Positions 2,710 through 61,554 of a stretch of 63,987 nt of DNA are shown piece after piece (the first letter of the stretch is position 1; every line of letters starts with the position of its first letter). The position numbers and the translations under genes are program-made. A model generated the notes under the pieces. The model did no database searches. It was given only the letters and a program-made list of their open reading frames with translations, and was not told the DNA's origin. Source of the DNA: a virus (taxonomy: Duplodnaviria; Caudoviricetes); IMG/VR virus record IMGVR_UViG_3300047509_000028, positions 1 to 63,987 of that record. One strand, given 5' to 3'.

Positions 2710-3564
2710 TTACTCGCTCCTGTCCAGCACCCGCTGCTTTTCTAACTGCGCGTTCACCCATGCTACCGGGTCACGCTCGAACAACTCGGCATCATCCAGA
2801 TAACCGCCTTGCATGAATACGTCCTGCGGTTCTAACTGCAACAGACGGCGCAGCAGCTTACCACGCTTCTCGCTTCCGACTGTACCCTCCCACCCGCCGC
2901 CGATTAAGCTTTCGCCTGTTACCGTACTTACGTGGTTAAAGCACACTGTACGTGCGAAGCTTGTTGAAGTCAGCACGGCTACACACTGCGCGAGACTGAT
3001 CGGATGCGAGTCTAACTGCACGCGCCCAGTGCAAACAAACTCAGGGATAGCGTGCGACACGGTATGATACGACGCCCACAACTCGACCGGACGTTCCTCA
3101 CTCATCCGCATCACTAACGCTGCTATTGCCGCACCACGACGGATGATCGCATCCTCGCCCACGCCAGCCGATACCATCACCTCTACCACCACGCGCACGG
3201 GTGCCGCTTCACTCTCAACCAACTGCCGCATCCGCATATGCCCCGGCTCGCCTGCTAGATACTCAGGCACGATAGGATATGCCCCTACTACGCTCGGCAT
3301 CCACTGCACTACATGCCGATCATGCAGGCCGCTGTCGATCTTGTCGATTAACTCGCGGGTCGTGCGGTAGCCTCGCTCGTTCACTGTGGCACCATCGCGG
3401 ATATATTTAATGGACTCCGCTAAGTCCCGCCCGCCTGCCCAACTCAGATGCGAACCGATACTATTCTTATCAACCCCCTGCGCCGCGACCTTGAGAAAGT
3501 CCGGCATACTCTCGGTGATGGTGATGAAACGATTAACGCCTTTGTCAACTGTTGGCTTGTTCAT
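2710..3564 (-). CDS. probable vWA-like partner of the adjacent AAA+ ATPase
   Basis: Directly downstream of the AAA gene; VPEYLAGEP and VRVVVEVMVSAG degenerate vWA-type segments. Confidence 0.55.
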   Translation of the reverse strand: MNKPTVDKGVNRFITITESMPDFLKVAAQGVDKNSIGSHLSWAGGRDLAESIKYIRDGATVNERGYRTTRELIDKIDSGLHDRHVVQWMPSVVGAYPIVPEYLAGEPGHMRMRQLVESEAAPVRVVVEVMVSAGVGEDAIIRRGAAIAALVMRMSEERPVELWASYHTVSHAIPEFVCTGRVQLDSHPISLAQCVAVLTSTSFARTVCFNHVSTVTGESLIGGGWEGTVGSEKRGKLLRRLLQLEPQDVFMQGGYLDDAELFERDPVAWVNAQLEKQRVLDRSE

Positions 3565-3589: not shown

Positions 3590-4951
3590 TTAAACGTTGG
3601 CGTGTTGGCGAATGCGTGCGATCTGTTCCTCAGTCAACCCTTTCCATACCAGCATGTTCAGACATTGCGCCTCGGAGAAACCAGCCCTTAGCAGGGCTGC
3701 ACCACGTATGCTAGCACGCGGGCTTACTACATGCTTCACGTCGCCGCTTGTCACGATAGCCTTGCGGATACGCTGTACCTTGTTCGTCCATAGGTCGTTG
3801 CCTGCCAGCGCACGCTCGAAGCTTTCATCATACGCCCAGTCCATCATAACAAACCTGTCCGTTGTTGCCTTGTCCAGCTTGTTCCGGCCAACGTAATCAT
3901 GCGTTGCCCCGTTGCCCCATGTGTTCGCGGTAGCGATGATGATGTTATCTGTATGCCGCGTGATCCGCTCACCTGCGAAGTCACACTGTCCGTTCTCAAG
4001 CATCATGCACAGAGCGACTAGCGCTTGCGGACTACCTGCATCCAGTTCATCCATCAGCAGCACCGATGGTACGCCATAACTGCGACTGCACTCAGTCTCC
4101 ACCCGCGCGCCTGTAGCCCCGCGATAGCCTAGCACCTTGTATTCCGTGTCCACCGCGCCGACGTGGTAATACGGGACGCCTAGAGCCTGCGCCACGGCCA
4201 TTGCTGCGCGTGTCTTGCCGGAACCGGCTGGCCCCGGTAGCAGGATCGGATAGCTGTAACCATCGCTGCCCTTCGTGCTAGCTAACTTAAGCAACTCCGG
4301 GAATTGATTATGCTGCACGCCTACGTTGACCGGCTCGCGTTCCCCGTTGTCGCTGCTTACCACGATCTGCTGCGGTAAGTTAATACCCCGCAGTTCCTCG
4401 CGGACTAGCTCACGCACCGCTTCGCTGTCCATGCTTCCGACGCCTAACGCCTCGCGTAATACCTGCGCGAGCGCATCGTTACTAGCAGCGTGCTTGGGCT
4501 TCACGTTCGCCGGTTCGGCTTTCGCTACCGGCTTGCTGTCCTGTTCTGCATTGTACGCTTCTTGCTCGTCATGCGACGGCTCAGGTTCTACCCTGTAGCT
4601 TTCCCCCGGTATCGGTACGTTCTTGCGCACTCCCGGCTTGTTGTATCCGGGATTGGCGTCGCTGCTGTTAATAAACTCCGTCATCGGCTTGCCTTGCTTG
4701 TTCGGTCGTGCCTTGTAAGCTGCCGCGCGTTGCTCCATCGCCGGAACGGCTTGCTCTAGTGCGTCGCGGTGCTGCGGATATTCTCGCAGTAGCCATTCAG
4801 CAAAGTGTGCTTTGCGTGGGGTTTCAAACCGTGTCTGCCAGTTTACGGTGACACCGCAGACGGTCTTAGCTAGCAGTTCAATGTCGCTGGTAATGCAGTT
4901 CGCTATTCTGCACGCGAGGTCACTTGAAAAACTGAAGTTATAGGTAGGCAT
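3590..4951 (-). CDS. MoxR/CobS-like AAA+ ATPase
   Basis: Walker A GPAGSGKT, Walker B LLMDE, sensor ATANT, LDKATTDRF arginine finger, SPR motif. Confidence 0.85.
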   Translation of the reverse strand: MPTYNFSFSSDLACRIANCITSDIELLAKTVCGVTVNWQTRFETPRKAHFAEWLLREYPQHRDALEQAVPAMEQRAAAYKARPNKQGKPMTEFINSSDANPGYNKPGVRKNVPIPGESYRVEPEPSHDEQEAYNAEQDSKPVAKAEPANVKPKHAASNDALAQVLREALGVGSMDSEAVRELVREELRGINLPQQIVVSSDNGEREPVNVGVQHNQFPELLKLASTKGSDGYSYPILLPGPAGSGKTRAAMAVAQALGVPYYHVGAVDTEYKVLGYRGATGARVETECSRSYGVPSVLLMDELDAGSPQALVALCMMLENGQCDFAGERITRHTDNIIIATANTWGNGATHDYVGRNKLDKATTDRFVMMDWAYDESFERALAGNDLWTNKVQRIRKAIVTSGDVKHVVSPRASIRGAALLRAGFSEAQCLNMLVWKGLTEEQIARIRQHANV

Positions 4952-5012: not shown

Positions 5013-5192
5013 TTAAAGCTCATCTGCGAAGCGTGCCACTCGAACCGCCCGATCATGCGCGCTGATCCTTTCGTTGTCAAGCGCTTCCCTATTCTGGCGC
5101 TCGCGTTGTACTGCTTTTTCTTTCCGCCTACGATACTTTACATCTTGTGGCGACAGTTTCCAGCTAGGCTGATTCCAGAATGCAGTGTTCAT
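5013..5192 (-). CDS. small hypothetical protein (59 aa, MNTAFWNQPSW...)
   Basis: Read manually; ATGA overlap with the stop of 5189-5548. Confidence 0.5.
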   Translation of the reverse strand: MNTAFWNQPSWKLSPQDVKYRRRKEKAVQRERQNREALDNERISAHDRAVRVARFADEL

Positions 5193-5548
5193 TCTGCTAC
5201 TCCTTGCGCGTCGTCAATGGCGGATAACGCTTCCGCTAGCGCATCGTCGTCCCCTAAGTTCGCCGTGTCTGCGAACGTACCAGCCACTTCCTCCATGTAA
5301 CTAACTGCCCTGTCCATCGCTTCGATTGCGTCATTCATCGCGCTACCTTTGTCGCCATCCTGTTGCGACTCGGGCAGATTATCATACGCTTCCTGTTCCT
5401 CGTCGTGCACTTCGTTTACTGCATCCCTGATCGTTTCCAATTGATCCGCTATCTCCCGCGATTCTCGCATACAAGCATTAATGCGCGCGGCCATTCCGTT
5501 CAGTGCATCATACTGCACTTGCAGGTCTTTTCTACGTTGCTTATTCAT
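5189..5548 (-). CDS. hypothetical acidic coiled-coil protein
   Basis: MNKQRRK...EEQEAYDNLPES motif seen in phage early proteins; AAAGGAAG RBS. Confidence 0.7.
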   Translation of the reverse strand: MNKQRRKDLQVQYDALNGMAARINACMRESREIADQLETIRDAVNEVHDEEQEAYDNLPESQQDGDKGSAMNDAIEAMDRAVSYMEEVAGTFADTANLGDDDALAEALSAIDDAQGVAE

Positions 5549-5571
5549 GTTATCTTCCTTTGTAGGCTACT

Positions 5572-5633
5572 GGCCTCGTCAGCTAGAGCGATACTCTAGG
5601 AAGCTGCGCGATTCACTGCGCAGCGTTTCGGCC
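5572..5633 (-). ncRNA. hammerhead ribozyme (stem II open, type II topology)
   Basis: Minus strand: GGCC-GAAA-C-GCUGCGC(AGUGAAUC)GCGCAGC-UUC-CUAGAG(UAUCG)CUCUAG-CUGACGA-GGCC; full CUGANGA/GAAA core, NUH site and three stems. Confidence 0.85.
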
Positions 5634-5635
5634 TG

Positions 5636-5824
5636 TTAGTTAATGCCGCATGCTTCCATGAATGTTTCGCGGGCGAAGCGTGGATTATCCTGTTTCGCGT
5701 ACGTTGTATATTGCTCTGCCACCGTCTTGAGGGCCTGATGCACTCGCAAGTGATTATCTGCCCCATGAATCTCGTATACGTTGCGCAGTATCGCCGCAAT
5801 CGCTTTATAGTCTTTGCGCGTCAT
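5636..5824 (-). CDS. small conserved phage hypothetical protein
   Basis: MTRKDY..IA...DNPRF....F..ACG pattern; GGGAG RBS. Confidence 0.7.
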   Translation of the reverse strand: MTRKDYKAIAAILRNVYEIHGADNHLRVHQALKTVAEQYTTYAKQDNPRFARETFMEACGIN

Positions 5825-5881
5825 GGTAGTGCTCCCGATTACTAGCGCGGAATTGCGCTAGGTTGCTGCTGCTGCGTGGCG

Positions 5882-5911
5882 ATGATAGTTCCTCGCGGTT
5901 GCCCGCGTCAA
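5882..5911 (-). promoter_or_regulatory. sigma70-like promoter
   Basis: TTGACG-N18-TATCAT in an intergenic region. Confidence 0.55.
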
Positions 5912-8694: not shown

Positions 8695-9309
8695 ATGTCC
8701 GTCGATCCTGTCAGCTTTCACGACTCTCTAGTAATACGCGCCCGGAACCTGCGCTTCCGTGGTGCTGGCTCGCCCTATGACTTCCTGTCGGATATCGGTA
8801 TCGTACCTATTAAGGAATTCATCTATAAGGGCAGCATGTTAATCGACGTAGCGGAAACGCTAAACGTGTCGGTAACGCAGCTAAAGAACTGGATAGCCAA
8901 CGAAGGGCTAGAGAGTGAAATAGAAGAAGCAAGCATATCCAGCGCAGAAGGCTACATCGCCAACGGCGAACGGCTACTTAAGTCAGCAGAAAATAAGTTC
9001 CAGCTAGACAAAGCGAAAGCCATGATCGAACATGGCCGCTTCATGGCAAGCAAGAAAGATAAAAAGACCTATGGGAATCAGTTGGAGATCACTGGCGGGC
9101 CAGCACAAGTGCATTACGTCTTTGCCGTACCGGCAACATCACAGGTGATGCTTGATGCACAAGCACCGAAGCAACTAGCCATTGATGCAGAGTTTAACGA
9201 AGTACCGCCTGTAAGGCTTGATCCATTAAATCTTGGCTCTGCTCTACCCGCGCGAGCGACAGCGAGCGTAGAATCCGGCGTAACCGCCGTGGAAGTGCAA
9301 GATGCTTAA
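8695..9309 (+). CDS. terminase small subunit (putative)
   Basis: HTH-like segment, KAKAMIEHGRFMASK...YG motif, overlaps the start of terL. Confidence 0.7.
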   Translation: MSVDPVSFHDSLVIRARNLRFRGAGSPYDFLSDIGIVPIKEFIYKGSMLIDVAETLNVSVTQLKNWIANEGLESEIEEASISSAEGYIANGERLLKSAENKFQLDKAKAMIEHGRFMASKKDKKTYGNQLEITGGPAQVHYVFAVPATSQVMLDAQAPKQLAIDAEFNEVPPVRLDPLNLGSALPARATASVESGVTAVEVQDA

Positions 9310-10804
9310 CGAACAACAAGCGGATACTTCTACCCGCAAAACAGTCGTCTACGAAGCCGAGCCGACACCGGCAAAGCTGCACAATGACCGAGGGCTACAG
9401 TTACAGTATCTAGAAGGCCCGATGGGTAGCAGTAAATCCACGTCCTGCATTATGGAGATACTGATGCGGGCGATGCGGCAGAAACCGCACAAGGGCGTTA
9501 GAAAGTCTCGTTGGGCAGTTGTGCGTAATACGTATGGCGAACTGAAAAGCACGACGATTAAGACATTCCAAGAATGGGTGCCCGACAGCATTGCTCCAAT
9601 CGTTTACTCTATGCCGATCATGTGTAAGTTTAAACAGAAACTCGGTGATGGTACGGCGATGCACCTAGAAGTTCTGTTCATGGCGTTGGACACCCCGGAA
9701 GATGCAGCAAAGCTCTTAAGCCTTGAGCTAACAGGCGCCTACGTGAATGAGGGACGTGAAATACCGTGGGAAGTGGTAGAGTTACTCTTGTCGCGTATCG
9801 ACCGCTATCCGAAAGTAGATGAAGGCGGAGCAACTGAACCGGGGGTGCTAGTAGATTCAAACCCACCAAGAAATTCCCATTGGCTATACAGGAAATTTGA
9901 GGCGGATGATACCGTAAGGCTTGTCGTGCAGAACGCGCAGGGTGAGGATATCAACGTCACATGGAGGAAGTATAAGCAACCGCCTGCGGTCTATAAGGAT
10001 CAGATAACAGAGAAGTGGGTGATTAACCCGGATGCGGAGAACCTTAAACACTTATCTCCTAATTACTACGTCAACCAGATGACGTTGGGGGATGAGCATA
10101 TCCGCGTGAATCTCGCAGGCGAGTACGGCATGAGCCGGAAAGGTACGCCGGTCTTTGCGAAGTTCTCGGAGTTAAAGCACGTCAGTAAAGAGATATTACA
10201 GCCGCGTCGCGGTACGCTAGCACTGATGGGGATAGATTTTGGATTACAGCCTGGGGCTGTTATAGGCCAATTAAGTCACAAAGGATTGATGCTCTTAGAT
10301 GAGATTCCTGCTACGGATGAGTCGTTAGAGGACTTCCTAGATCACTACGTGTTGCCTGTACTGCGTACCAGATATCAGGGATATCAGATTGTAGCCTGCG
10401 GCGATCCGAGCGGCGGCGGTCGGCAGAGTATTAATAAGCTCACTAGTATTGGGGTGATGAACAGTAAGGGCATTAAAACCTACCCTGCTATAACGAATAG
10501 CTTTATCAAGCGTAAGGAAGCGGTAGACTGGTTCCTCGGTCGGGATGAAGGGTTTATTGTAAGCAAGAATCTCACGCATATTAGGGAAGTGATGGGGGCT
10601 GGGTATGTTTACAAAGAACAGCGCAACGCGCAAGGCAAGGTGTTAGATATCCCCGATAAAAATGAGTTTAGCCACGTCGCTGATGCGATTCAGTATCTCT
10701 GCCTGTACGCGCGCTATGGCGGCGGGAGTCTCGCAATGGGCGTTGGCGGGGGCGTGTCCGTGAGCGATGGCGGGCCTCCCAAGAAGCGGCACCTATGGGC
10801 TTGA
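9302..10804 (+). CDS. terL: terminase large subunit
   Basis: GPMGSSKS Walker A, AVVRNTY, YVNE Walker B, DSNPP, nuclease GIDFG and SHVADAIQY. Confidence 0.92.
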   Translation: MLNEQQADTSTRKTVVYEAEPTPAKLHNDRGLQLQYLEGPMGSSKSTSCIMEILMRAMRQKPHKGVRKSRWAVVRNTYGELKSTTIKTFQEWVPDSIAPIVYSMPIMCKFKQKLGDGTAMHLEVLFMALDTPEDAAKLLSLELTGAYVNEGREIPWEVVELLLSRIDRYPKVDEGGATEPGVLVDSNPPRNSHWLYRKFEADDTVRLVVQNAQGEDINVTWRKYKQPPAVYKDQITEKWVINPDAENLKHLSPNYYVNQMTLGDEHIRVNLAGEYGMSRKGTPVFAKFSELKHVSKEILQPRRGTLALMGIDFGLQPGAVIGQLSHKGLMLLDEIPATDESLEDFLDHYVLPVLRTRYQGYQIVACGDPSGGGRQSINKLTSIGVMNSKGIKTYPAITNSFIKRKEAVDWFLGRDEGFIVSKNLTHIREVMGAGYVYKEQRNAQGKVLDIPDKNEFSHVADAIQYLCLYARYGGGSLAMGVGGGVSVSDGGPPKKRHLWA

Positions 10805-11687: not shown

Positions 11688-11896
11688 CACGTTGGGAGCT
11701 AGTATCTGCTAGTATAGACGCTGGGAACGATACAACGCGAAAAATCGCAGACGATACGAAACTGCTAATGGAATCGGTAGGCGCAACGCTGTATAGGGCA
11801 CATAAGCGGGGGCAAGTGACACGAGTAGCAATGCGCAAGAAGTCAAGTCCAGTACCGTACTTCGTGTATACAAGGACTAAAGATGACCGACGCTAG
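11684..11896 (+). CDS. small winged-helix-like basic protein
   Basis: ATGA coupling; TTRKIADD...SVGATLYR...GQV pattern. Confidence 0.5.
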   Translation: MTRWELVSASIDAGNDTTRKIADDTKLLMESVGATLYRAHKRGQVTRVAMRKKSSPVPYFVYTRTKDDRR

Positions 11897-12266
11897 GACT
11901 GACACGAAGGCTACTATACAGGCTACTTTTGATGGGTTCGATAAAGGTCTGCGAGCGTTTCTCGCGGTAGCAGTTGTGGTAATGGTAGCGGGTATAGTCT
12001 ATATGATGTTTACCCGACAGATACCCGACGCAAGTAGGGAGATTGCGGGCACTGTAGTAGGTGTAATGCTCGCTATACTTAAAGATGTGTATAGTACAGT
12101 ATACAGTACGTCAGCCTCGTCCGCCAAGAAGGATGCAACAATAGCAGAAATAGCTAAATCGGGTAGCCAAAATAGCGGAATGGGCATGGGCGATACTGTA
12201 AGTAAAACAACTAGTAGCACAACGACTTCGCCACCTGCGGAGCCAACAACGGGAGTAACGCAATGA
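11883..12266 (+). CDS. holin-like 2-TM protein
   Basis: Two TM helices then STSASSAKKD, resembling the FGSS..S..KD motif of phage holin-like proteins. Confidence 0.6.
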   Translation: MTDARTDTKATIQATFDGFDKGLRAFLAVAVVVMVAGIVYMMFTRQIPDASREIAGTVVGVMLAILKDVYSTVYSTSASSAKKDATIAEIAKSGSQNSGMGMGDTVSKTTSSTTTSPPAEPTTGVTQ

Positions 12267-12900: not shown

Positions 12901-13418
12901 GTACACCTAGCAAGGCGCAGCTTCTACAGCAGTTACGATCCATACAAGGTAACGGACTGCTAATTTATCTCCGTGCGGCTGCCGAAGCGCACGGACTGCC
13001 TGTGGGCTATGTAGTCGCTGTAGCTTCTAGAGAGACGAACTGTGTCAATGAGCTAGGCGATTATCAAGGCGGACAGTATCACGGCGTCGGTATCATGCAA
13101 CGAGATATCCAGCACCCCGAAGCAAAGCAAGCACGCGACGACGGAAGTTGGAAAACCCCGGCAGGAATAAAACTATTAGTCGATGCGGACGTGGAGGAAC
13201 TAGCGCAGAACTGTGGGACGGTGCGCGGGTATTTCGACGACGTAACTGAGGATGATGTATTGCGTATCGCAGCCGATGGGTACAACGACGGTATCAGCAG
13301 GGCACTACGCGACGCAAACGATGGCGGCGATCCAGATCGGCATACGACGGGACACGACTACGGCGAAGATGTAATGGCGCGTAAAGCTGTTTTTGACGTG
13401 CTATTAGGGAGTACATGA
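12897..13418 (+). CDS. endolysin, lysozyme-like/transglycosylase fold
   Basis: ASRETN catalytic Glu, GIMQ, YN.G and D..TTG.DY..DVMAR motifs as in goose-type lysozymes. Confidence 0.8.
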   Translation: MSTPSKAQLLQQLRSIQGNGLLIYLRAAAEAHGLPVGYVVAVASRETNCVNELGDYQGGQYHGVGIMQRDIQHPEAKQARDDGSWKTPAGIKLLVDADVEELAQNCGTVRGYFDDVTEDDVLRIAADGYNDGISRALRDANDGGDPDRHTTGHDYGEDVMARKAVFDVLLGST

Positions 13419-13522
13419 TGCACATTGTATGGATCGTGCTGGCCGTACTTGCGGTATTGGCAGCTATAGCAGGAACCTTTATTTTTATAATGTACCAACT
13501 CGCTAAAGGGATGAGTCGGTGA
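13415..13522 (+). CDS. single-TM peptide (35 aa)
   Basis: Read manually: MMHIVWIVLAVLAVLAAIAGTFIFIMYQLAKGMSR; ATGA overlap and GGGAG RBS. Confidence 0.5.
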   Translation: MMHIVWIVLAVLAVLAAIAGTFIFIMYQLAKGMSR

Positions 13523-13594
13523 GTTTGCTCTACTACGCACTGGAAGTCTTAATCATCTACGGGGTATTATGGCTCTGCTGCCCGAGGCTATCGA

Positions 13595-15670
13595 ATGAGC
13601 GCTAATCTGTCCAGCACGAATCCGTTGCTTACTCCAAAGGACGATAATCCCTTAACTAAATACGGGTTGGGCGAGATTAGCAACGTAAAAGTGCAGAACG
13701 CATTAGCGGCGCATGTTAATAAACAGTTTGAATGGAATAAGCAGCATAAAAGAAATATAGGAATCACCGAACGCCTAATTAGAAACTTACGCGCAAAACG
13801 CTGCGAGTATCAGCCAGACGAAAAACTACTGTTAGGGGAATTCAATAATATCTACGTTGCTATCTGTGCGCTAAAAGCCCGCGCCGCAGAATCATGGCTA
13901 ATAGATATCATCGTTAATAATATCGACAAACCGTGGACACTCAACCCTTCGGTAGAGCCAGATTTGCCAGATAGGCTAAAAGAGCAAGTGATTGATGCAC
14001 TTTTACTTGAACTTCCTGAATTTAAAACCTTCGATGCGCTAAAAGACCGCGCGCAGCAGTTGAAGTCGGCGGTACAGAGTATTGCAGTACAGCAAGCGAC
14101 GGCTACTGTGCAGCGCATGGAAACCCATATTCAGGGACAGCTACAAGAAGGCGGATGGGTCGATACGTTCAGCGCGTTTATCGCAGACTTAGTGGTATTC
14201 CCGGCGGCGATGATACGCGGGCCTATCTCAGTAGGCCGACCGACACCTGAATGGGATGGAGATAACTTTACCATCAAGAATGAATCGGTACTAACTACTA
14301 GAACGATTAGCCCATTTAATGCGTATCCCGCGCCGAATTCTTCGACGTGCCAAGACGGCAATAACTTTATCGAAGCGATAGAATACACGCACTCGGATAT
14401 TCACGACTTAATTAGCGTCCCCTCGTTCTTAGAGTCCAACATACGGCAGGTATTAGATAAGTATGCGTTAGGATATACGCCTACAAGAATTGAAGATTCG
14501 ACAAAGAAAGCGCTAGAAGGCAAAGAGCAGCCGCTTACATCGCATTCGACAGGACTAGAAGTACGTATCTATAATGGCAAGATCATAGGGAAGATGCTTG
14601 CCGAAAATGGGGTACTAATCTCCGACCCGCAGAAGTTCTATGAATGCGAAGTATGGGTGATTGGCGAGTACGTTATACGTGCGGTGCTGAACCCGAATCC
14701 ATTAGGTAAACGGCCTATTTACGGCACGTCCTACGTTAAGGTAAACGGCTCGTTTTGGGGCCAAAGCGTTATTGATACAGTGTACGATGTAATGCGCGTA
14801 TGCAATGCCGCATGCCGATCCATCGTACGCAACATGGGCTACGCAAGCGGGCCGGTCGGTGAAGTAGATGCAGGCAGGTTAGCTCCGGGCGAGGACGGCA
14901 CCGAGATAGAACCCTATAAGATATTCCAAGTCGGGCCTGACTTGACCGGCACAGGTGGAGCAGCTTTCAAGTTCCATAATGTGTCGATGATCGCAGGCGA
15001 ACTGAAAGAAGTCTTTGAGTACTACATGAAGTTAGCGGATGATTTATCTGGCGTACCCGCTTACGTACTAGGTAATCCGCAAGTGGCAGGCGCAGGTAGA
15101 ACACTTGGCGGACTTAGTATGCTGATGGGCAACGCTGCGAAGGGCATTAAAAACGTACAGCTTAACATCGACCGTGACGTGATTACGGGTGTAGTGGATG
15201 CGTATTACTACTATAACATGGTCGTGTCTACCGATAACGGCATTAAAGCAGACGCGAAGGTGGTAGCGCGCGGCGCGACGGGTCTGCTACAGCGGGAGTT
15301 GGCGCAGACAAGAACAGTGGAGATACTGCAACTGCTTACGCCGTATGCGCAACAAGGACTGGTATCGCCGCAGGGTATTGAGTACTTACTACGCGAAGTG
15401 TTGAAGCCAACGGGTATGGACATAGACAAGATCATACCTGATCCCGACAAAGCATCCAGCGAGAATGAAATAGGGACGTTGTTGGGGGGACAAGGGCAGT
15501 CTCCATCACCACCGCCACCTGCACTACCGCAGCAAGGAGGCCCACAAACGCCCGTACTAAATACGGGGACTAATACGCCGCCTAGATTACCAGCACAGAG
15601 TCAGCCACCTTTACCTACACCGAATATGCAACCGTTCCCAAAACCAGTTAATCTTCCACAAGGAGCATAA
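13595..15670 (+). CDS. portal protein
   Basis: 691 aa, located between terminase and scaffold/capsid; ADDLSGVP..G...GAGRT..GLSML pattern of podovirus portals. Confidence 0.85.
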   Translation: MSANLSSTNPLLTPKDDNPLTKYGLGEISNVKVQNALAAHVNKQFEWNKQHKRNIGITERLIRNLRAKRCEYQPDEKLLLGEFNNIYVAICALKARAAESWLIDIIVNNIDKPWTLNPSVEPDLPDRLKEQVIDALLLELPEFKTFDALKDRAQQLKSAVQSIAVQQATATVQRMETHIQGQLQEGGWVDTFSAFIADLVVFPAAMIRGPISVGRPTPEWDGDNFTIKNESVLTTRTISPFNAYPAPNSSTCQDGNNFIEAIEYTHSDIHDLISVPSFLESNIRQVLDKYALGYTPTRIEDSTKKALEGKEQPLTSHSTGLEVRIYNGKIIGKMLAENGVLISDPQKFYECEVWVIGEYVIRAVLNPNPLGKRPIYGTSYVKVNGSFWGQSVIDTVYDVMRVCNAACRSIVRNMGYASGPVGEVDAGRLAPGEDGTEIEPYKIFQVGPDLTGTGGAAFKFHNVSMIAGELKEVFEYYMKLADDLSGVPAYVLGNPQVAGAGRTLGGLSMLMGNAAKGIKNVQLNIDRDVITGVVDAYYYYNMVVSTDNGIKADAKVVARGATGLLQRELAQTRTVEILQLLTPYAQQGLVSPQGIEYLLREVLKPTGMDIDKIIPDPDKASSENEIGTLLGGQGQSPSPPPPALPQQGGPQTPVLNTGTNTPPRLPAQSQPPLPTPNMQPFPKPVNLPQGA

Positions 15671-17031: not shown

Positions 17032-18896
17032 ATGCCAATTCCCGCCGCAGCAGGCTTAACGTCAGCGGCGTTATAAATAAGACAAGGCCCGCTATAGCGA
17101 AAGCTGTAGTAGTAAACCTAGTGAATTGCGGGAAAAGCTGAAACGCCAATCCGCAGCCAAGCCCAGCGATGGGAAGGTTCAACGACTAGGGCATATCGTT
17201 CGCCGTACTGAGTACGGCAATCTCGGGCTATAGGCCCAAAGGATAACAGCATGAATCGGGAAGAACGCGGCATACTTGTGGGTATGGTAATGGGCGATGG
17301 CTGTCTAAGGGTTCGTAAACGATATGAATCCGGTAGGGAAAACCAGACGGTTACACTTTTGCAGATATCGCACTCCATAAAGCAAGTAGATTACTTAAGA
17401 TATAAAGCTGAGAGAGTTAGTAATATCTTAGGAGGTAGGTCCAAAGTAACTTACTACGACGTAAAATTGAAAGGCCATAGTGCAGCATATAAAATGGCAC
17501 GTACCATAAAGGTAAGTAAGTATTTTGAGCAACTAAGAGGTTGGATATACCCTACCGGCAAGAAAGAAATAAATAGTAGGGTATTAGATATGCTCACCCC
17601 AGAAGGGTTAACTCTTTGGTACTTAGATGATGGGCATACGAAGTGGTCTTGGAATAAGGAAGGAAATATAACAGCAGCACAATCTTTATGGGCAGTATGC
17701 TTGCCAGTACCGCAAATATCGCTGCTACAAGAATACCTTTTCGACGTATATGGGTTTGATTCACAAATGGTGATGGTGAATAGTTCTAATATGTTGAATT
17801 TTAAAAGTAAGGTTTCGCACGAAATGCGCGAAATGTTTAGGTCGTATACTCCCGATTCGATGCTGTATAAGATATGCCCCACGAGTGCTAGGCTCCCTCC
17901 GAGACTTAGAAGGGATGAAGATATAGTCTGAGCTTATGGGAATAAGTAACCATAAGAAGTTAGGATAAAGAGCCTAACGATAACATAACTGACCCGCAGT
18001 ACAGCAATAACCTTATCACTCCCCTGTTCCGCATGGAATTGTTGGAGCGTTTCTATACGACTACCGTGTATAGCGACATTTCCACTACGGAATACACAGG
18101 CGAGTTAAATAAGGGTGGCGATCAGATCACGTTCCAGCGCGAGCCAAAGGTCGTGGTTCGTGACTACGATAAGAACGGTAAGATCGTGCACGATACGATT
18201 GATGGTGAGCCGGTCACCATGACGATTGATAACGCTAAGACTTTCTCGATCAAGATGAATATGATCGACGAAAAGCAGATTCAGAACTTCGAGAACTGGA
18301 AAGCGGCATTCCTTAAGAGTGCTGGTTATGAACTTGCGCGTGCGATTGACCCGCAGTTACTTACGGCAATGTGGACAAGCGCAGCGGCGTATAATCAGGG
18401 TCTAACCGCTGGTTTGGTTTCCGCTAACGTCAATATGGGCGTAGCGGGTACACCATTAGCGATTACGAAAACAAACGTAATCGACGTGTTGCAGCAAGTG
18501 CATCAGGTGCTTGACGAAGCGTTAGCTCCGCGCGAAGGTCGTTTTATCGTACTTCCTTCCGCTGGTATGGTTGCGCTTAAGACTAGTGACCTGAAATTCG
18601 CGTATGCAACTGCGTTAAATACGACCCCGATGTTAAATGGTAAGGTTCCAGAAATCGTTGCAGGATTTATTATTTTGGAATCGCAAAATCTTCCGTCAGT
18701 GATTGACGGCGCAGTGCGGGCGTATCACATTGTTGCTGGTGCGAAAATGGCGACTGCGTTTGCCGCACAGATCGAGAATAGTCGTGTTGTAACAGATAAA
18801 GATGATTGGGCGAATTATTATCAGGGTTTATCGGTGTACGGGTTTAAAGTGCTGTACCCGGATGCTATCGTCCACCTGTACGCCAACTTTGCCTAA
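17032..18896 (+). CDS. major capsid protein, spliced: exon 1 17032-17056 and exon 2 17992-18896 (309 aa)
   Basis: AGGAG RBS; joining the exons gives in-frame MPIPAAAG-Y-PQYSNNLITPLFRMELLERFY...; capsid motifs EYTGEL..GGD.I, LDEALAPREGR, GLSVYGFKVL. Confidence 0.88.
17057..17991 (+). mobile_element. group I self-splicing intron (935 nt) in the major capsid gene
   Basis: P GAATTGCGGGAAA, Q AATCCGCAGC, R GTTCAACGACTA, S AAGATATAGTCT; exon ends in U pairing with G of GGCCCGCT (P1); terminal G at 17991. Confidence 0.92.
17251..17931 (+). CDS. intron-encoded LAGLIDADG homing endonuclease
   Basis: Two motifs, ILVGMVMGDG and LTLWYLDDG; lies between the intron R and S elements. Confidence 0.9.
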   Translation: MNREERGILVGMVMGDGCLRVRKRYESGRENQTVTLLQISHSIKQVDYLRYKAERVSNILGGRSKVTYYDVKLKGHSAAYKMARTIKVSKYFEQLRGWIYPTGKKEINSRVLDMLTPEGLTLWYLDDGHTKWSWNKEGNITAAQSLWAVCLPVPQISLLQEYLFDVYGFDSQMVMVNSSNMLNFKSKVSHEMREMFRSYTPDSMLYKICPTSARLPPRLRRDEDIV

Positions 18897-58135: not shown

Positions 58136-58216
58136 TCGGGACGGCGGGATTTGAACCCGCATGGATTTCTCCGGCGGCTTTTAAGGCCGCTTTGTCTGCC
58201 GTTCCAACACGTCCCG
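58136..58216 (-). tRNA. tRNA-Leu(UAA), CCA not encoded
   Basis: Acceptor CGGGACG/CGTCCCG+A, anticodon arm GCGGC-CTTAAAA-GCCGC, long variable arm, T arm GCGGG-TTCAAAT-CCCGC. Confidence 0.88.
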
Positions 58217-61478: not shown

Positions 61479-61554
61479 TGGTGGGCCAGTCTGGAATCGA
61501 ACCAGAATCAATCCGTTATGAGCGGAACGCTTGTAACCAATAAGCTACAGGCCC
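61479..61554 (-). tRNA. tRNA with CAU anticodon, most likely tRNA-Ile2 (lysidine type)
   Basis: GGGCCTGTAGCTTATTGGTT...CTCATAA...GGTTCGATTCC...GGCCCACCA; C4-G69 and C5-G68 pairs; encoded CCA; one acceptor mismatch. Confidence 0.85.

What the first reader, a model, noticed from the sequence alone, without database searches (positions are those of the whole stretch)
5572..5633. Hammerhead ribozyme between two early genes, with a non-canonical stem III base
Seen: the minus-strand RNA has the complete core (CUGACGA, GAAA), stem I CUAGAG/CUCUAG, stem II GGCC/GGCC and stem III GCUGCGC/GCGCAGC. The cleavage triplet is UUC, with the cut between 5600 and 5599, and pair 15.2-16.2 is a C-U mismatch. It lies downstream of a sigma70-like promoter and about 50 nt upstream of the ATG at 5548. 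Inference: self-cleavage processes the early polycistron and gives the downstream AAA/vWA/SprT transcript a 5'-OH end, which may change its stability. The mismatch may slow or tune cleavage.
Basis: partly seen in the sequence, partly recalled or inferred. Interest (0 to 1): 0.75.

Follow-up and report, generated by a model that had tools for sequence, protein, structure and literature searches.

The report
Hammerhead ribozyme between phage genes
A small self-cutting RNA (type II hammerhead ribozyme) of a kind already common in phages lies between two genes of this soil phage; its one oddity is a mispaired base next to the cutting site that probably slows it.

Summary
The minus strand 5633-5572 has a complete hammerhead core, stems I and III closed by loops, an open 4-bp stem II (type II), cleavage between 5600 and 5599, and a C-U mismatch at 15.2-16.2.

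It is not a chance motif. It belongs to an abundant phage class with stem II GGCC/GGCC, an A before it and AG after it. A class-derived pattern hit 97 stretches of IMG/VR, and 115 of 117 matches parse as hammerheads. A covariance model built without the window scores it 54.9 bits, E 7e-14. Chance pattern matches in bacterial genomes score 23-34 bits.

Rfam's RF02276 misses it. That model also misses 23 of 24 class members at its cut-off.

The context is typical of the class: the upstream stop codon ends 2 nt before the ribozyme and the next start lies 23 nt after it.

The mismatch is unique among 128 distinct class members and should weaken cleavage. The nearest relative phage has a syntenic copy with a different defect, G8 to A.

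Phage type II hammerheads have been known since 2011, and this scan has noted many on other DNA. This is an ordinary new member, with no cleavage or expression data.

The parts
5572..5633 (-). Type II hammerhead ribozyme, from the outer end of stem II to the outer end of stem II (62 nt)
   Evidence: Sequence. Sole descriptor hit in the window. Class covariance model R1 gives 54.9 bits, E 6.9e-14 over 5636-5560.
5634..5634 (-). A directly 5' of stem II, invariant in the class
   Evidence: A in 128 of 128 distinct class members; present here.
5630..5633 (-). Stem II strand GGCC (11.4-11.1), which pairs with 5575-5572
   Evidence: The G-C/C-G pairs are kept in 120-128 of 128 members.
5626..5629 (-). 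Core G12 A13 A14 plus A15.1
   Evidence: Invariant in 128 of 128 members, with A15.1-U16.1 in 127 of 128.
5603..5625 (-). Stem-loop III: C15.2 (5625), 7 G/C-rich pairs (5624-5618 with 5609-5603) and an 8-nt loop (5617-5610)
   Evidence: The stem differs from that of relative L104 by compensatory changes.
5602..5602 (-). U16.2, mispaired with C15.2 (5625); the only non-standard 15.2-16.2 pair in the class sample
   Evidence: 15.2-16.2 across 128 distinct members: C-G 118, G-C 7, U-G 1, A-U 1, C-U 1. The C-U is the window.
5600..5601 (-). U16.1 and C17; predicted scission between 5600 and 5599
   Evidence: Position follows from the core alignment. C17 in 117 of 128 members. Cleavage was not tested.
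5583..5599 (-). Stem-loop I: CUAGAG / UAUCG / CUCUAG. The loop begins with the class-invariant U (5593). The top pair is G-C.
   Evidence: First loop base U in 128 of 128 members; top pair G-C in 122 of 128.
5576..5582 (-). Core C3 U4 G5 A6 C7 G8 A9 (CUGACGA)
   Evidence: matches the class consensus.
5570..5575 (-). Stem II strand GGCC (10.1-10.4) followed by the class-typical AG tail (5571-5570)
   Evidence: Tail A in 118 and G in 114 of 128 members.
5636..5824 (-). Upstream ORF (62 aa, no family match). Its TAA stop (5638-5636) ends 2 nt before stem II.
5189..5548 (-). Downstream ORF (119 aa, phrog_4068, function unknown). The ATG lies 23 nt after stem II, and AAGGAAG at 5560-5554 is a likely ribosome-binding site.

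Best explanation
The element is a genuine type II hammerhead ribozyme. It belongs by descent to a large class that punctuates phage operons. That class has stem II GGCC/GGCC, an A before and AG after stem II, and a U-first loop I.

It is transcribed as part of the leftward message that runs from the 62-aa ORF into the 119-aa ORF and the AAA-ATPase / DUF7192 / SprT-like block. Once the 62 nt are made, the three-way junction folds and the RNA cuts itself after C17, between 5600 and 5599.

The upstream message then ends 36 nt after its stop codon. It carries a 2',3'-cyclic phosphate just 3' of the G/C-rich stem III hairpin. The downstream message starts with a 5'-OH and the stem I hairpin, 51 nt before its ATG, with the ribosome-binding site free.

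The likely consequence is that the two halves of the operon get separate fates and stabilities. The C15.2-U16.2 mismatch isolates the A15.1-U16.1 pair, so cleavage is probably slower than in typical class members.

Shown: the sequence, the fold prediction, class membership, compensatory changes, and the context.
Inferred: transcription, cleavage, the end chemistry in vivo, the effect on stability, and the size of the slowing.
For: - **Core and helices:** complete core and three helices; the minimum-free-energy fold is the junction.
- **Class size:** the pattern GGCCGAAA-N35-65-CTGANGAGGCCAG hit 97 IMG/VR stretches. Of 117 matches, window included, 115 parse as type II hammerheads, with 97 distinct sequences.
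- **Model score:** model R1 was built from 19 class members without the window. It gives one hit in the window, 54.9 bits, E 6.9e-14.
- **Calibration:** in bacterial genome contigs, pattern matches without good stems score 23.4-33.9 bits. Real ones score 44 bits or more: 20 hits in 13 of 69 loci.
- **Covariation:** stems I and III covary freely across 128 distinct members.
- **Class marks:** the window has all of them. A before stem II 128/128, loop I first U 128/128, top stem I pair G-C 122/128, AG tail.
- **Context:** the longest upstream open frame stops within -3..+1 nt of stem II in 88 of 128 contexts, against 1-7 of 117-129 at shifted anchors. The window is at -2. The next start lies 10-39 nt after stem II in 101 of 132; the window is at 23.
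- **Nearest relative:** phage L104 (AAA ATPase 52% identical) has a hammerhead at the same relative place (56.6 bits). Stems I and III are kept through changes on both sides.
- **Literature:** clustered prophage hammerheads cleave in about 2-kb transcripts in vitro, and those of A. tumefaciens cleave in vivo (PMC3088659, passages). Three type II hammerheads next to phage-like genes in D. vulgaris cleave in vivo and in vitro (PMC8782182, passages).
Against: - **No direct data:** there is no RNA or cleavage evidence of any kind.
- **Rfam:** RF02276 gives no hit even at E<=10 and none at gathering.
- **The mismatch:** the 15.2-16.2 pair is non-standard here and in no other of 128 distinct members. 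A review says innermost stem III mismatches hit the cleavage rate hardest (PMC8495972).
- **Fold probability:** the nearest-neighbour probability that all junction pairs form together is 0.0068, sixth lowest of 128, against a median of 0.46. In the minimum-free-energy fold A15.1-U16.1 is open.
- **Relative's copy:** L104 has CUGAUAA, with G8 changed to A and C3 unchanged. Comprehensive mutagenesis found no high-activity mutants of the catalytic guanosines (PMC9901934, passages). Catalysis may therefore be dispensable in this lineage.
- **More distant relatives:** L105-L112 have no hammerhead near the AAA gene.
- **Promoter:** the promoter match upstream is no better than chance.
Confidence: 0.6

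Rival explanations
1. It is a hammerhead by descent that no longer cleaves at a useful rate. On this reading it is a decaying relic, or an RNA kept only for its hairpins, for example as a stabiliser or spacer between cistrons.
For: - The C-U mismatch at 15.2-16.2 is unique among 128 members.
- P(all junction pairs) is 0.0068, against a median of 0.46.
- Innermost stem III mismatches are the most harmful (PMC8495972).
- The only syntenic relative has an uncompensated G8-to-A change, at a position with no high-activity mutants (PMC9901934).
- More distant relatives lack the element, so it is dispensable for this phage family.
- Core deviations occur in 7 of 39 class members that were not selected by a perfect-core pattern, so imperfect copies are common.
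Against: - All 11 core nucleotides, all three core-adjacent pairs and every class-specific mark are intact.
- Stems were maintained by compensatory changes since the split from L104.
- One 1x1 mismatch inside a 9-position stem with 7 G/C-rich pairs need not abolish activity in a tertiary-stabilised natural hammerhead.
- Perreault et al. measured slow but real activity in phage core variants (PMC3088659).
Confidence: 0.33
2. It is a chance arrangement of hairpins, or a different element such as an intrinsic terminator, that only resembles a hammerhead.
For: - Rfam reports no hammerhead.
- The fold z-score is modest at -1.98.
- 4 of 400 shuffled windows give some relaxed type II descriptor hit. 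Over the many windows of a large scan, chance hits must occur.
Against: - 0 of 400 shuffles match with stems this long.
- The class model gives 54.9 bits, E 7e-14, about 20 bits above chance pattern matches.
- The window shares class marks outside the catalytic core and the class-typical stop/start spacing.
- A homologous copy exists in the nearest relative.
- The terminator scan lists nothing at this site. Stem III is followed by UUCC, not a U run.
Confidence: 0.02

Closest known systems
Type II hammerhead ribozymes of bacteria, prophages and phages (Perreault et al. 2011, PMC3088659; Rfam RF02276)
   Same: - Same catalytic core, and the same permutation: stems I and III closed, stem II open.
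- Same habitat, between same-strand genes of phages and prophages.
[quoted passage not shown]
   Different: - It scores below RF02276's cut-off, with no hit at E<=10. The closest-looking IMG/VR examples, L007 and L008, reach 26.6 bits against a cut-off of 37.
- Stem II has 4 pairs (GGCC) rather than the 2 pairs of the Rfam consensus (alignment).
- The loop I to 3'-tail pseudoknot described for most type II hammerheads is not supported in this subclass. Observed complementarity equals that of shuffled loop/tail pairings, and mutual information is low.
- There is a C-U mismatch at 15.2-16.2.
- The phage carries a single copy rather than a cluster.
The 'GGCC...GGCC-AG' subclass defined here from IMG/VR (176 model hits in 98 loci plus the window)
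   Same: All subclass marks, lengths and the gene-boundary layout are shared.
   Different: It is the only one of 128 distinct members with a non-standard 15.2-16.2 pair. Many members occur in arrays, for example 11 hits in L011, whereas this phage has one.
Syntenic hammerhead of the nearest relative phage (L104:3132-3192, +)
   Same: - Same position, upstream of the small gene that precedes the AAA ATPase.
- Same flanks (ACUAACA...GGCC, GGCCAG).
- Similar loops, with stems kept by compensatory changes.
   Different: L104 has a standard C15.2-G16.2 pair and a GUC site, but its core reads CUGAUAA (G8 to A, position 3187). The flanking small genes are unrelated.
Slow core-variant hammerheads in phages (e.g. 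the A6C variant in phage Bcep176; HHphage of haloviruses HF1/HF2; Perreault et al. 2011)
   Same: These are natural phage hammerheads with a deviation expected to slow cleavage. They lie just upstream of a gene, and the authors suggest such variants may be condition-dependent (passages).
   Different: Those deviations lie in the core itself. Here the core is intact and the defect is the pair one step out in stem III.

Membership tests
Hammerhead ribozyme (any type) | Conserved core C3 U4 G5 A6 N7 G8 A9 and G12 A13 A14 | tested here: met
   CUGACGA at 5582-5576 and GAA at 5629-5627; required by the descriptor.
Hammerhead ribozyme (any type) | A15.1-U16.1 pair and H17 (not G) at the cleavage site | tested here: met
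   A5626 with U5601, and C5600.
Hammerhead ribozyme (any type) | Standard pairs directly next to the core in all three stems (10.1-11.1, 1.1-2.1, 15.1-16.1). This is the acceptance rule of Perreault et al. 2011. | tested here: met
   G5575-C5630, C5599-G5583 and A5626-U5601.
Hammerhead ribozyme (any type) | Continuous stem III beyond 15.1-16.1 (15.2-16.2 paired) | tested here: not met
   C5625 opposite U5602; 1 of 128 distinct class members. Seven standard pairs follow. This is not one of Perreault's rejection criteria for a single mispair in a long stem.
Type II hammerhead | Stems I and III closed by loops, stem II open | tested here: met
Type II hammerhead (Rfam RF02276) | Score at or above the gathering cut-off (37 bits) | tested here: not met
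   No hit at gathering and none at E<=10. The model also detects only 1 of 24 pattern-class hammerheads in 14 loci at its cut-off, so the failure says little.
Type II hammerhead (Perreault consensus) | Pseudoknot of 4 or more pairs between loop I and the nucleotides just 3' of stem II | tested here: not met
   At most 3 contiguous pairs are possible in the window. Across the class, complementarity equals that of shuffled pairings: mean 3.77 against 3.83 +/- 0.08.
Phage 'GGCC...GGCC-AG' type II subclass (defined here) | Significant score with a covariance model built from other members | tested here: met
   54.9 bits, E 6.9e-14, sole hit in the window. Chance pattern matches score 23-34 bits.
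Phage 'GGCC...GGCC-AG' type II subclass (defined here) | Subclass marks outside the core: A before stem II, U first in loop I, G-C top pair of stem I, AG after stem II | tested here: met
   All are present. Frequencies are 128/128, 128/128, 122/128, and 118 and 114 of 128.
Phage 'GGCC...GGCC-AG' type II subclass (defined here) | Lies between same-strand genes, with the upstream stop abutting stem II and the next start 10-39 nt after it | tested here: met
   Stop at -2 and start at +23. Class: 88 of 128 and 101 of 132.
Hammerhead ribozyme (any type) | Site-specific self-cleavage giving 2',3'-cyclic phosphate and 5'-OH ends | not testable with these tools
   No RNA run holds the stretch. A bench assay is needed.

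The most novel reading that the evidence does not exclude
In this phage lineage the hammerhead at the boundary of the AAA-ATPase module may be kept in a deliberately weakened or non-catalytic state. Two related phages carry different single defects at positions that matter for catalysis: C-U at 15.2-16.2 here, and G8 to A in L104. Meanwhile the stems (through compensatory changes) and every subclass-specific tertiary nucleotide stay intact.

The fold would then act as a slow or conditional switch. For example, it could cut only when no ribosome is terminating on the stop codon that abuts stem II, or only at high Mg2+. Alternatively it could act purely as a structural boundary. It would not be a constitutive cutter.
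Probability: 0.15. Interest if true: 0.5.

Novelty: new member of a known kind. Interest (0 to 1): 0.28.

Why it matters
For this phage it marks a probable mRNA processing site that separates a small upstream gene from the AAA-ATPase / DUF7192 / SprT-like block.

More generally, three things came out of the check.
- Rfam's type II hammerhead model misses most of a very common phage subclass: 23 of 24 at its cut-off. Annotation pipelines therefore under-report these ribozymes.
- The subclass has a rigid layout, with the upstream stop codon touching the ribozyme in about 70% of cases. This makes translation-coupled control of cleavage testable.
- Natural near-core defects such as this C-U mismatch and the relative's G8A are ready-made test cases. 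They ask how much imperfection a natural, tertiary-stabilised hammerhead tolerates.

None of this changes what is known about how hammerheads work.

Tried and rejected
- **Rfam.** The whole window at gathering gave only two tRNAs. The locus at E<=10 gave only a 12.7-bit partial Hammerhead_1 match and a spurious flavivirus cHP match. RF02276 on the record gave 0 matches from 5 candidates scored. I rejected this as evidence against membership.
- **DNA similarity to deposited phages.** blastn gave no match.
- **Close relatives through single proteins.** The AAA ATPase found no pattern match in IMG/VR. The 119-aa protein found four loci at 31-37% identity, none with a hammerhead.
- **First narrow pattern**. 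It gave 3 stretches. L006 lies in what looks like coding sequence and does not parse as a hammerhead; I dropped it as chance. L007 and L008 are real.
- **Rows that did not parse**. Two of 117 pattern matches did not parse: L014 2913-2979 and L058 7028-6963. R1 later scored the L014 site at 51.1 bits, so my descriptor was too strict there. L058 gave no R1 hit.
- **Loop I to tail pseudoknot.** No signal.
- **Promoter and terminator scan.** Counts were no higher than in shuffles.
- **Expression.** No RNA holder was listed. One DNA run, possibly the source, was found. Its contigs cover 5300-5900 without differences, which only shows that the letters are reproducible.
- **More distant relatives.** L105-L112 gave no hammerhead, even with filters off on 7 loci. 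I gave that of the 9 loci L104-L112. L107 and L108 were left out because their AAA matches to L106 are identical in identity and length. Both were covered with default filters.
- **Werner and Uhlenbeck 1995.** This is the primary paper on stem mismatches. It is not held, so I cite only a review's sentence. My memory of its numbers is not used.
- **Supplements.** Supplementary alignments of Perreault et al. 2011 could not be seen. They may already contain this GGCC subclass.
- **Chance expectation for the, 68 pattern.** This is my own arithmetic: 20 fixed bases and 31 gap lengths give about 2.8e-11 per position. That is about 34 expected in the 596 Gb of genome contigs, both strands. It comes from no tool.
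- **The metagenome-contig scan was not used.** The 5.8-billion-protein search found no relative closer than 52%.

Full report
**What is there.** The window is a complete 63,987-base IMG/VR virus record. Its only listed DNA holder is a soil metagenome run.

On the minus strand, positions 5633 to 5572 read as follows:
- GGCC, then GAAA, then C;
- stem III: GCUGCGC, an 8-nt loop, GCGCAGC;
- UU, then C;
- stem I: CUAGAG, loop UAUCG, CUCUAG;
- CUGACGA, then GGCC.

This is the hammerhead core with stems I and III closed and stem II open, that is type II. C17 is 5600, so the cut falls between 5600 and 5599. C15.2 (5625) faces U16.2 (5602). The minimum-free-energy fold of 5645-5560 is this three-way junction, with the four junction-side bases of stem III left open.

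**Is it more than chance?** My descriptor covers all three topologies with stems of 3 pairs or more. It finds this site and no other in the record. Four of 400 Markov-shuffled windows give some relaxed type II hit, and none gives one as good. For a scan of very many windows that alone would not be enough, so I looked for relatives of the RNA itself.

**A large phage class.** A pattern that keeps only stem II, GAAA, the CUGANGA box and the AG tail, and leaves 35-65 free bases between, hit 97 stretches of IMG/VR. In the loci fetched, plus the window, there are 117 matches. Of these, 115 parse as type II hammerheads, giving 97 distinct sequences.

I built a covariance model (R1) from 19 members of the 56-nt form, without the window. 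It finds one hit in the window, 5636-5560, at 54.9 bits and E 6.9e-14 with rough calibration.

Because the window satisfies the same pattern, part of that score comes by construction. The calibration comes from bacterial genomes. There the pattern hit 69 stretches, where my arithmetic expects about 34 by chance. R1 splits its 36 hits there (E<=0.001) into 20 hits of 44 bits or more in 13 loci, and 16 hits of 23.4-33.9 bits. The window sits with the real ones.

In 98 IMG/VR loci plus the window, R1 finds 176 hits. Many phages carry arrays.

Across 128 distinct aligned members, stems I and III covary freely. The class has marks outside the catalytic core, and the window has all of them:
- A before stem II: 128/128.
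- U first in loop I: 128/128.
- G-C as the top pair of stem I: 122/128.
- A and G after stem II: 118 and 114 of 128.

**Why Rfam is silent.** RF02276 gives nothing for the window at gathering or at E<=10. It scores the canonical look-alikes L007 and L008 at 26.6 bits against a cut-off of 37. In 14 loci holding 24 pattern-class hammerheads, it reports one of them at its cut-off. The Rfam consensus has a 2-pair stem II, a 9-pair stem I and a tail suited to a pseudoknot (alignment).

In this subclass I find no sign of that pseudoknot. Loop-tail complementarity equals that of shuffled pairings, and mutual information is low. The negative Rfam result therefore reflects the model, not the RNA.

**Context.** The ribozyme fills the 87-nt gap between two minus-strand ORFs. 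ORF 5636-5824 (62 aa) has no family match. ORF 5189-5548 (119 aa) matches phrog_4068. Downstream follow an AAA ATPase (3590-4951), a DUF7192 protein (2710-3564) and a SprT-like protein (1082-1726).

The upstream TAA ends 2 nt before stem II. The next ATG is 23 nt after stem II, preceded by AAGGAAG. This is the class rule:
- The longest upstream open frame stops within -3 to +1 nt of stem II in 88 of 128 contexts. At anchors shifted by 150-500 nt the figure is 1-7 of 117-129 (one search gives 91 of 132 without the edge filter).
- The next start lies 10-39 nt after stem II in 101 of 132 contexts.

**Relatives of the phage.** No deposited phage matches at the DNA level. The best AAA-ATPase homologue in 5.8 billion proteins is 52% identical. 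Its contig, L104, carries a hammerhead of the same subclass about 300 nt upstream of the AAA gene (56.6 bits). The flanks are similar, and stems I and III are kept through changes on both sides. The structure has therefore been under selection in this lineage.

L104 has a standard C-G at 15.2-16.2 and a GUC site. Its core, however, reads CUGAUAA: G8 is A while C3 is unchanged. More distant relatives at 39-43% identity, L105-L112, have no hammerhead within 3.5 kb of the gene.

**The mismatch.** Among 128 distinct members, 15.2-16.2 is C-G 118, G-C 7, U-G 1, A-U 1 and C-U 1. The C-U is the window.

[quoted passage not shown] The primary paper is not held.

In a nearest-neighbour model, the probability that all consensus junction pairs form together is 0.0068 for the window. 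That is sixth lowest of 128, against a median of 0.46. The main reason is that A15.1-U16.1 is left as an isolated pair.

Imperfect copies are not rare in the class. Seven of the 39 members that were not pre-selected for a perfect core deviate somewhere in the core or at 15.1-16.1. One of these is the known compensated U3/A8.

For G8, comprehensive mutagenesis found no high-activity mutants of the catalytic guanosines (PMC9901934, passages).

**How it most likely works.** The element is transcribed within the leftward operon, folds, and cuts after C5600.

The upstream RNA ends just 3' of the stem III hairpin with a cyclic phosphate. The downstream RNA begins with a 5'-OH and the stem I hairpin, 51 nt ahead of its ATG.

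Perreault et al. 2011 proposed exactly this processing role for clustered prophage hammerheads, and showed cleavage in about 2-kb transcripts in vitro. For the A. tumefaciens hammerheads they also showed cleavage in vivo (PMC3088659, passages). Three type II hammerheads beside phage-like genes cleave in D. vulgaris cells (PMC8782182, passages).

Two further points are my inference from general knowledge of bacterial mRNA decay. A 3' hairpin should protect against 3' exonucleases. A 5'-OH with a 5' hairpin should limit 5'-end-dependent RNase entry.

I put membership by descent at about 0.95. I put 0.6 on the whole statement, that it still cleaves (slower than typical) and so processes the message, and 0.33 on a relic that no longer cleaves.

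**What is not supported.** The promoter-like site at 5911-5882 is one of four matches, where shuffles give 3.8. 'Early' was not tested. 'vWA' was not confirmed. No RNA data exist for this stretch.

**Novelty.** Phage and prophage type II hammerheads between genes have been in print since 2011. This scan already holds 472 notes with the words hammerhead, phage and intergenic, several on the same kind of array. This is a new, slightly defective member of a known kind.

Noticed in passing
L104:3132-3192 (+), core at 3182-3188: The syntenic hammerhead of the nearest relative phage has perfect stems and a GUC site, but its core reads CUGAUAA. G8 is changed to A and C3 is unchanged. By standard rules this should strongly impair catalysis.
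   Followed up: partly
Class level: 132 non-redundant hammerhead contexts in L007-L103 plus the window: The stop codon of the upstream gene ends within -3 to +1 nt of stem II in 88 of 128 contexts, against 1-7 of about 125 at shifted anchors. A terminating ribosome would therefore cover stem II and G12-A14. This could couple cleavage to translation, or it could just reflect genome compaction.
   Followed up: partly
Class level: alignment A2: This subclass shows no loop I to 3'-tail pseudoknot signal. Instead it has an invariant A before stem II, an invariant U opening loop I, and AG after stem II. These probably form a different tertiary contact.
   Followed up: partly
L100:12206-12737 (+): Three identical hammerheads lie exactly 237 nt apart. 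Six further, weaker model hits lie on either side, one upstream (11886-11960) and five downstream (12951-14428). This looks like a tandem unit that would be cut into about 237-nt RNAs.
   Followed up: no
L011 (8,523 bases): Eleven model hits on one strand, roughly one every 400-500 nt. This is a very dense hammerhead array.
   Followed up: no
L019:9705-9760 (+): A twister-P5 ribozyme (Rfam 42.4 bits, above its cut-off) lies 359 nt downstream of a hammerhead of this subclass (9283-9346). Two ribozyme classes occur in successive gene gaps.
   Followed up: no
window, whole record: The Rfam gathering scan reports only two tRNAs (61482-61554 and 58136-58216, both minus). It reports no group I intron model, although another first-stage note on this record proposes one at about 17032-18896.
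   Followed up: no
window, whole record: CTGANGA occurs only 6 times on both strands together. My arithmetic for equal base frequencies gives about 31, so the box is under-represented. The cause was not examined.
   Followed up: no
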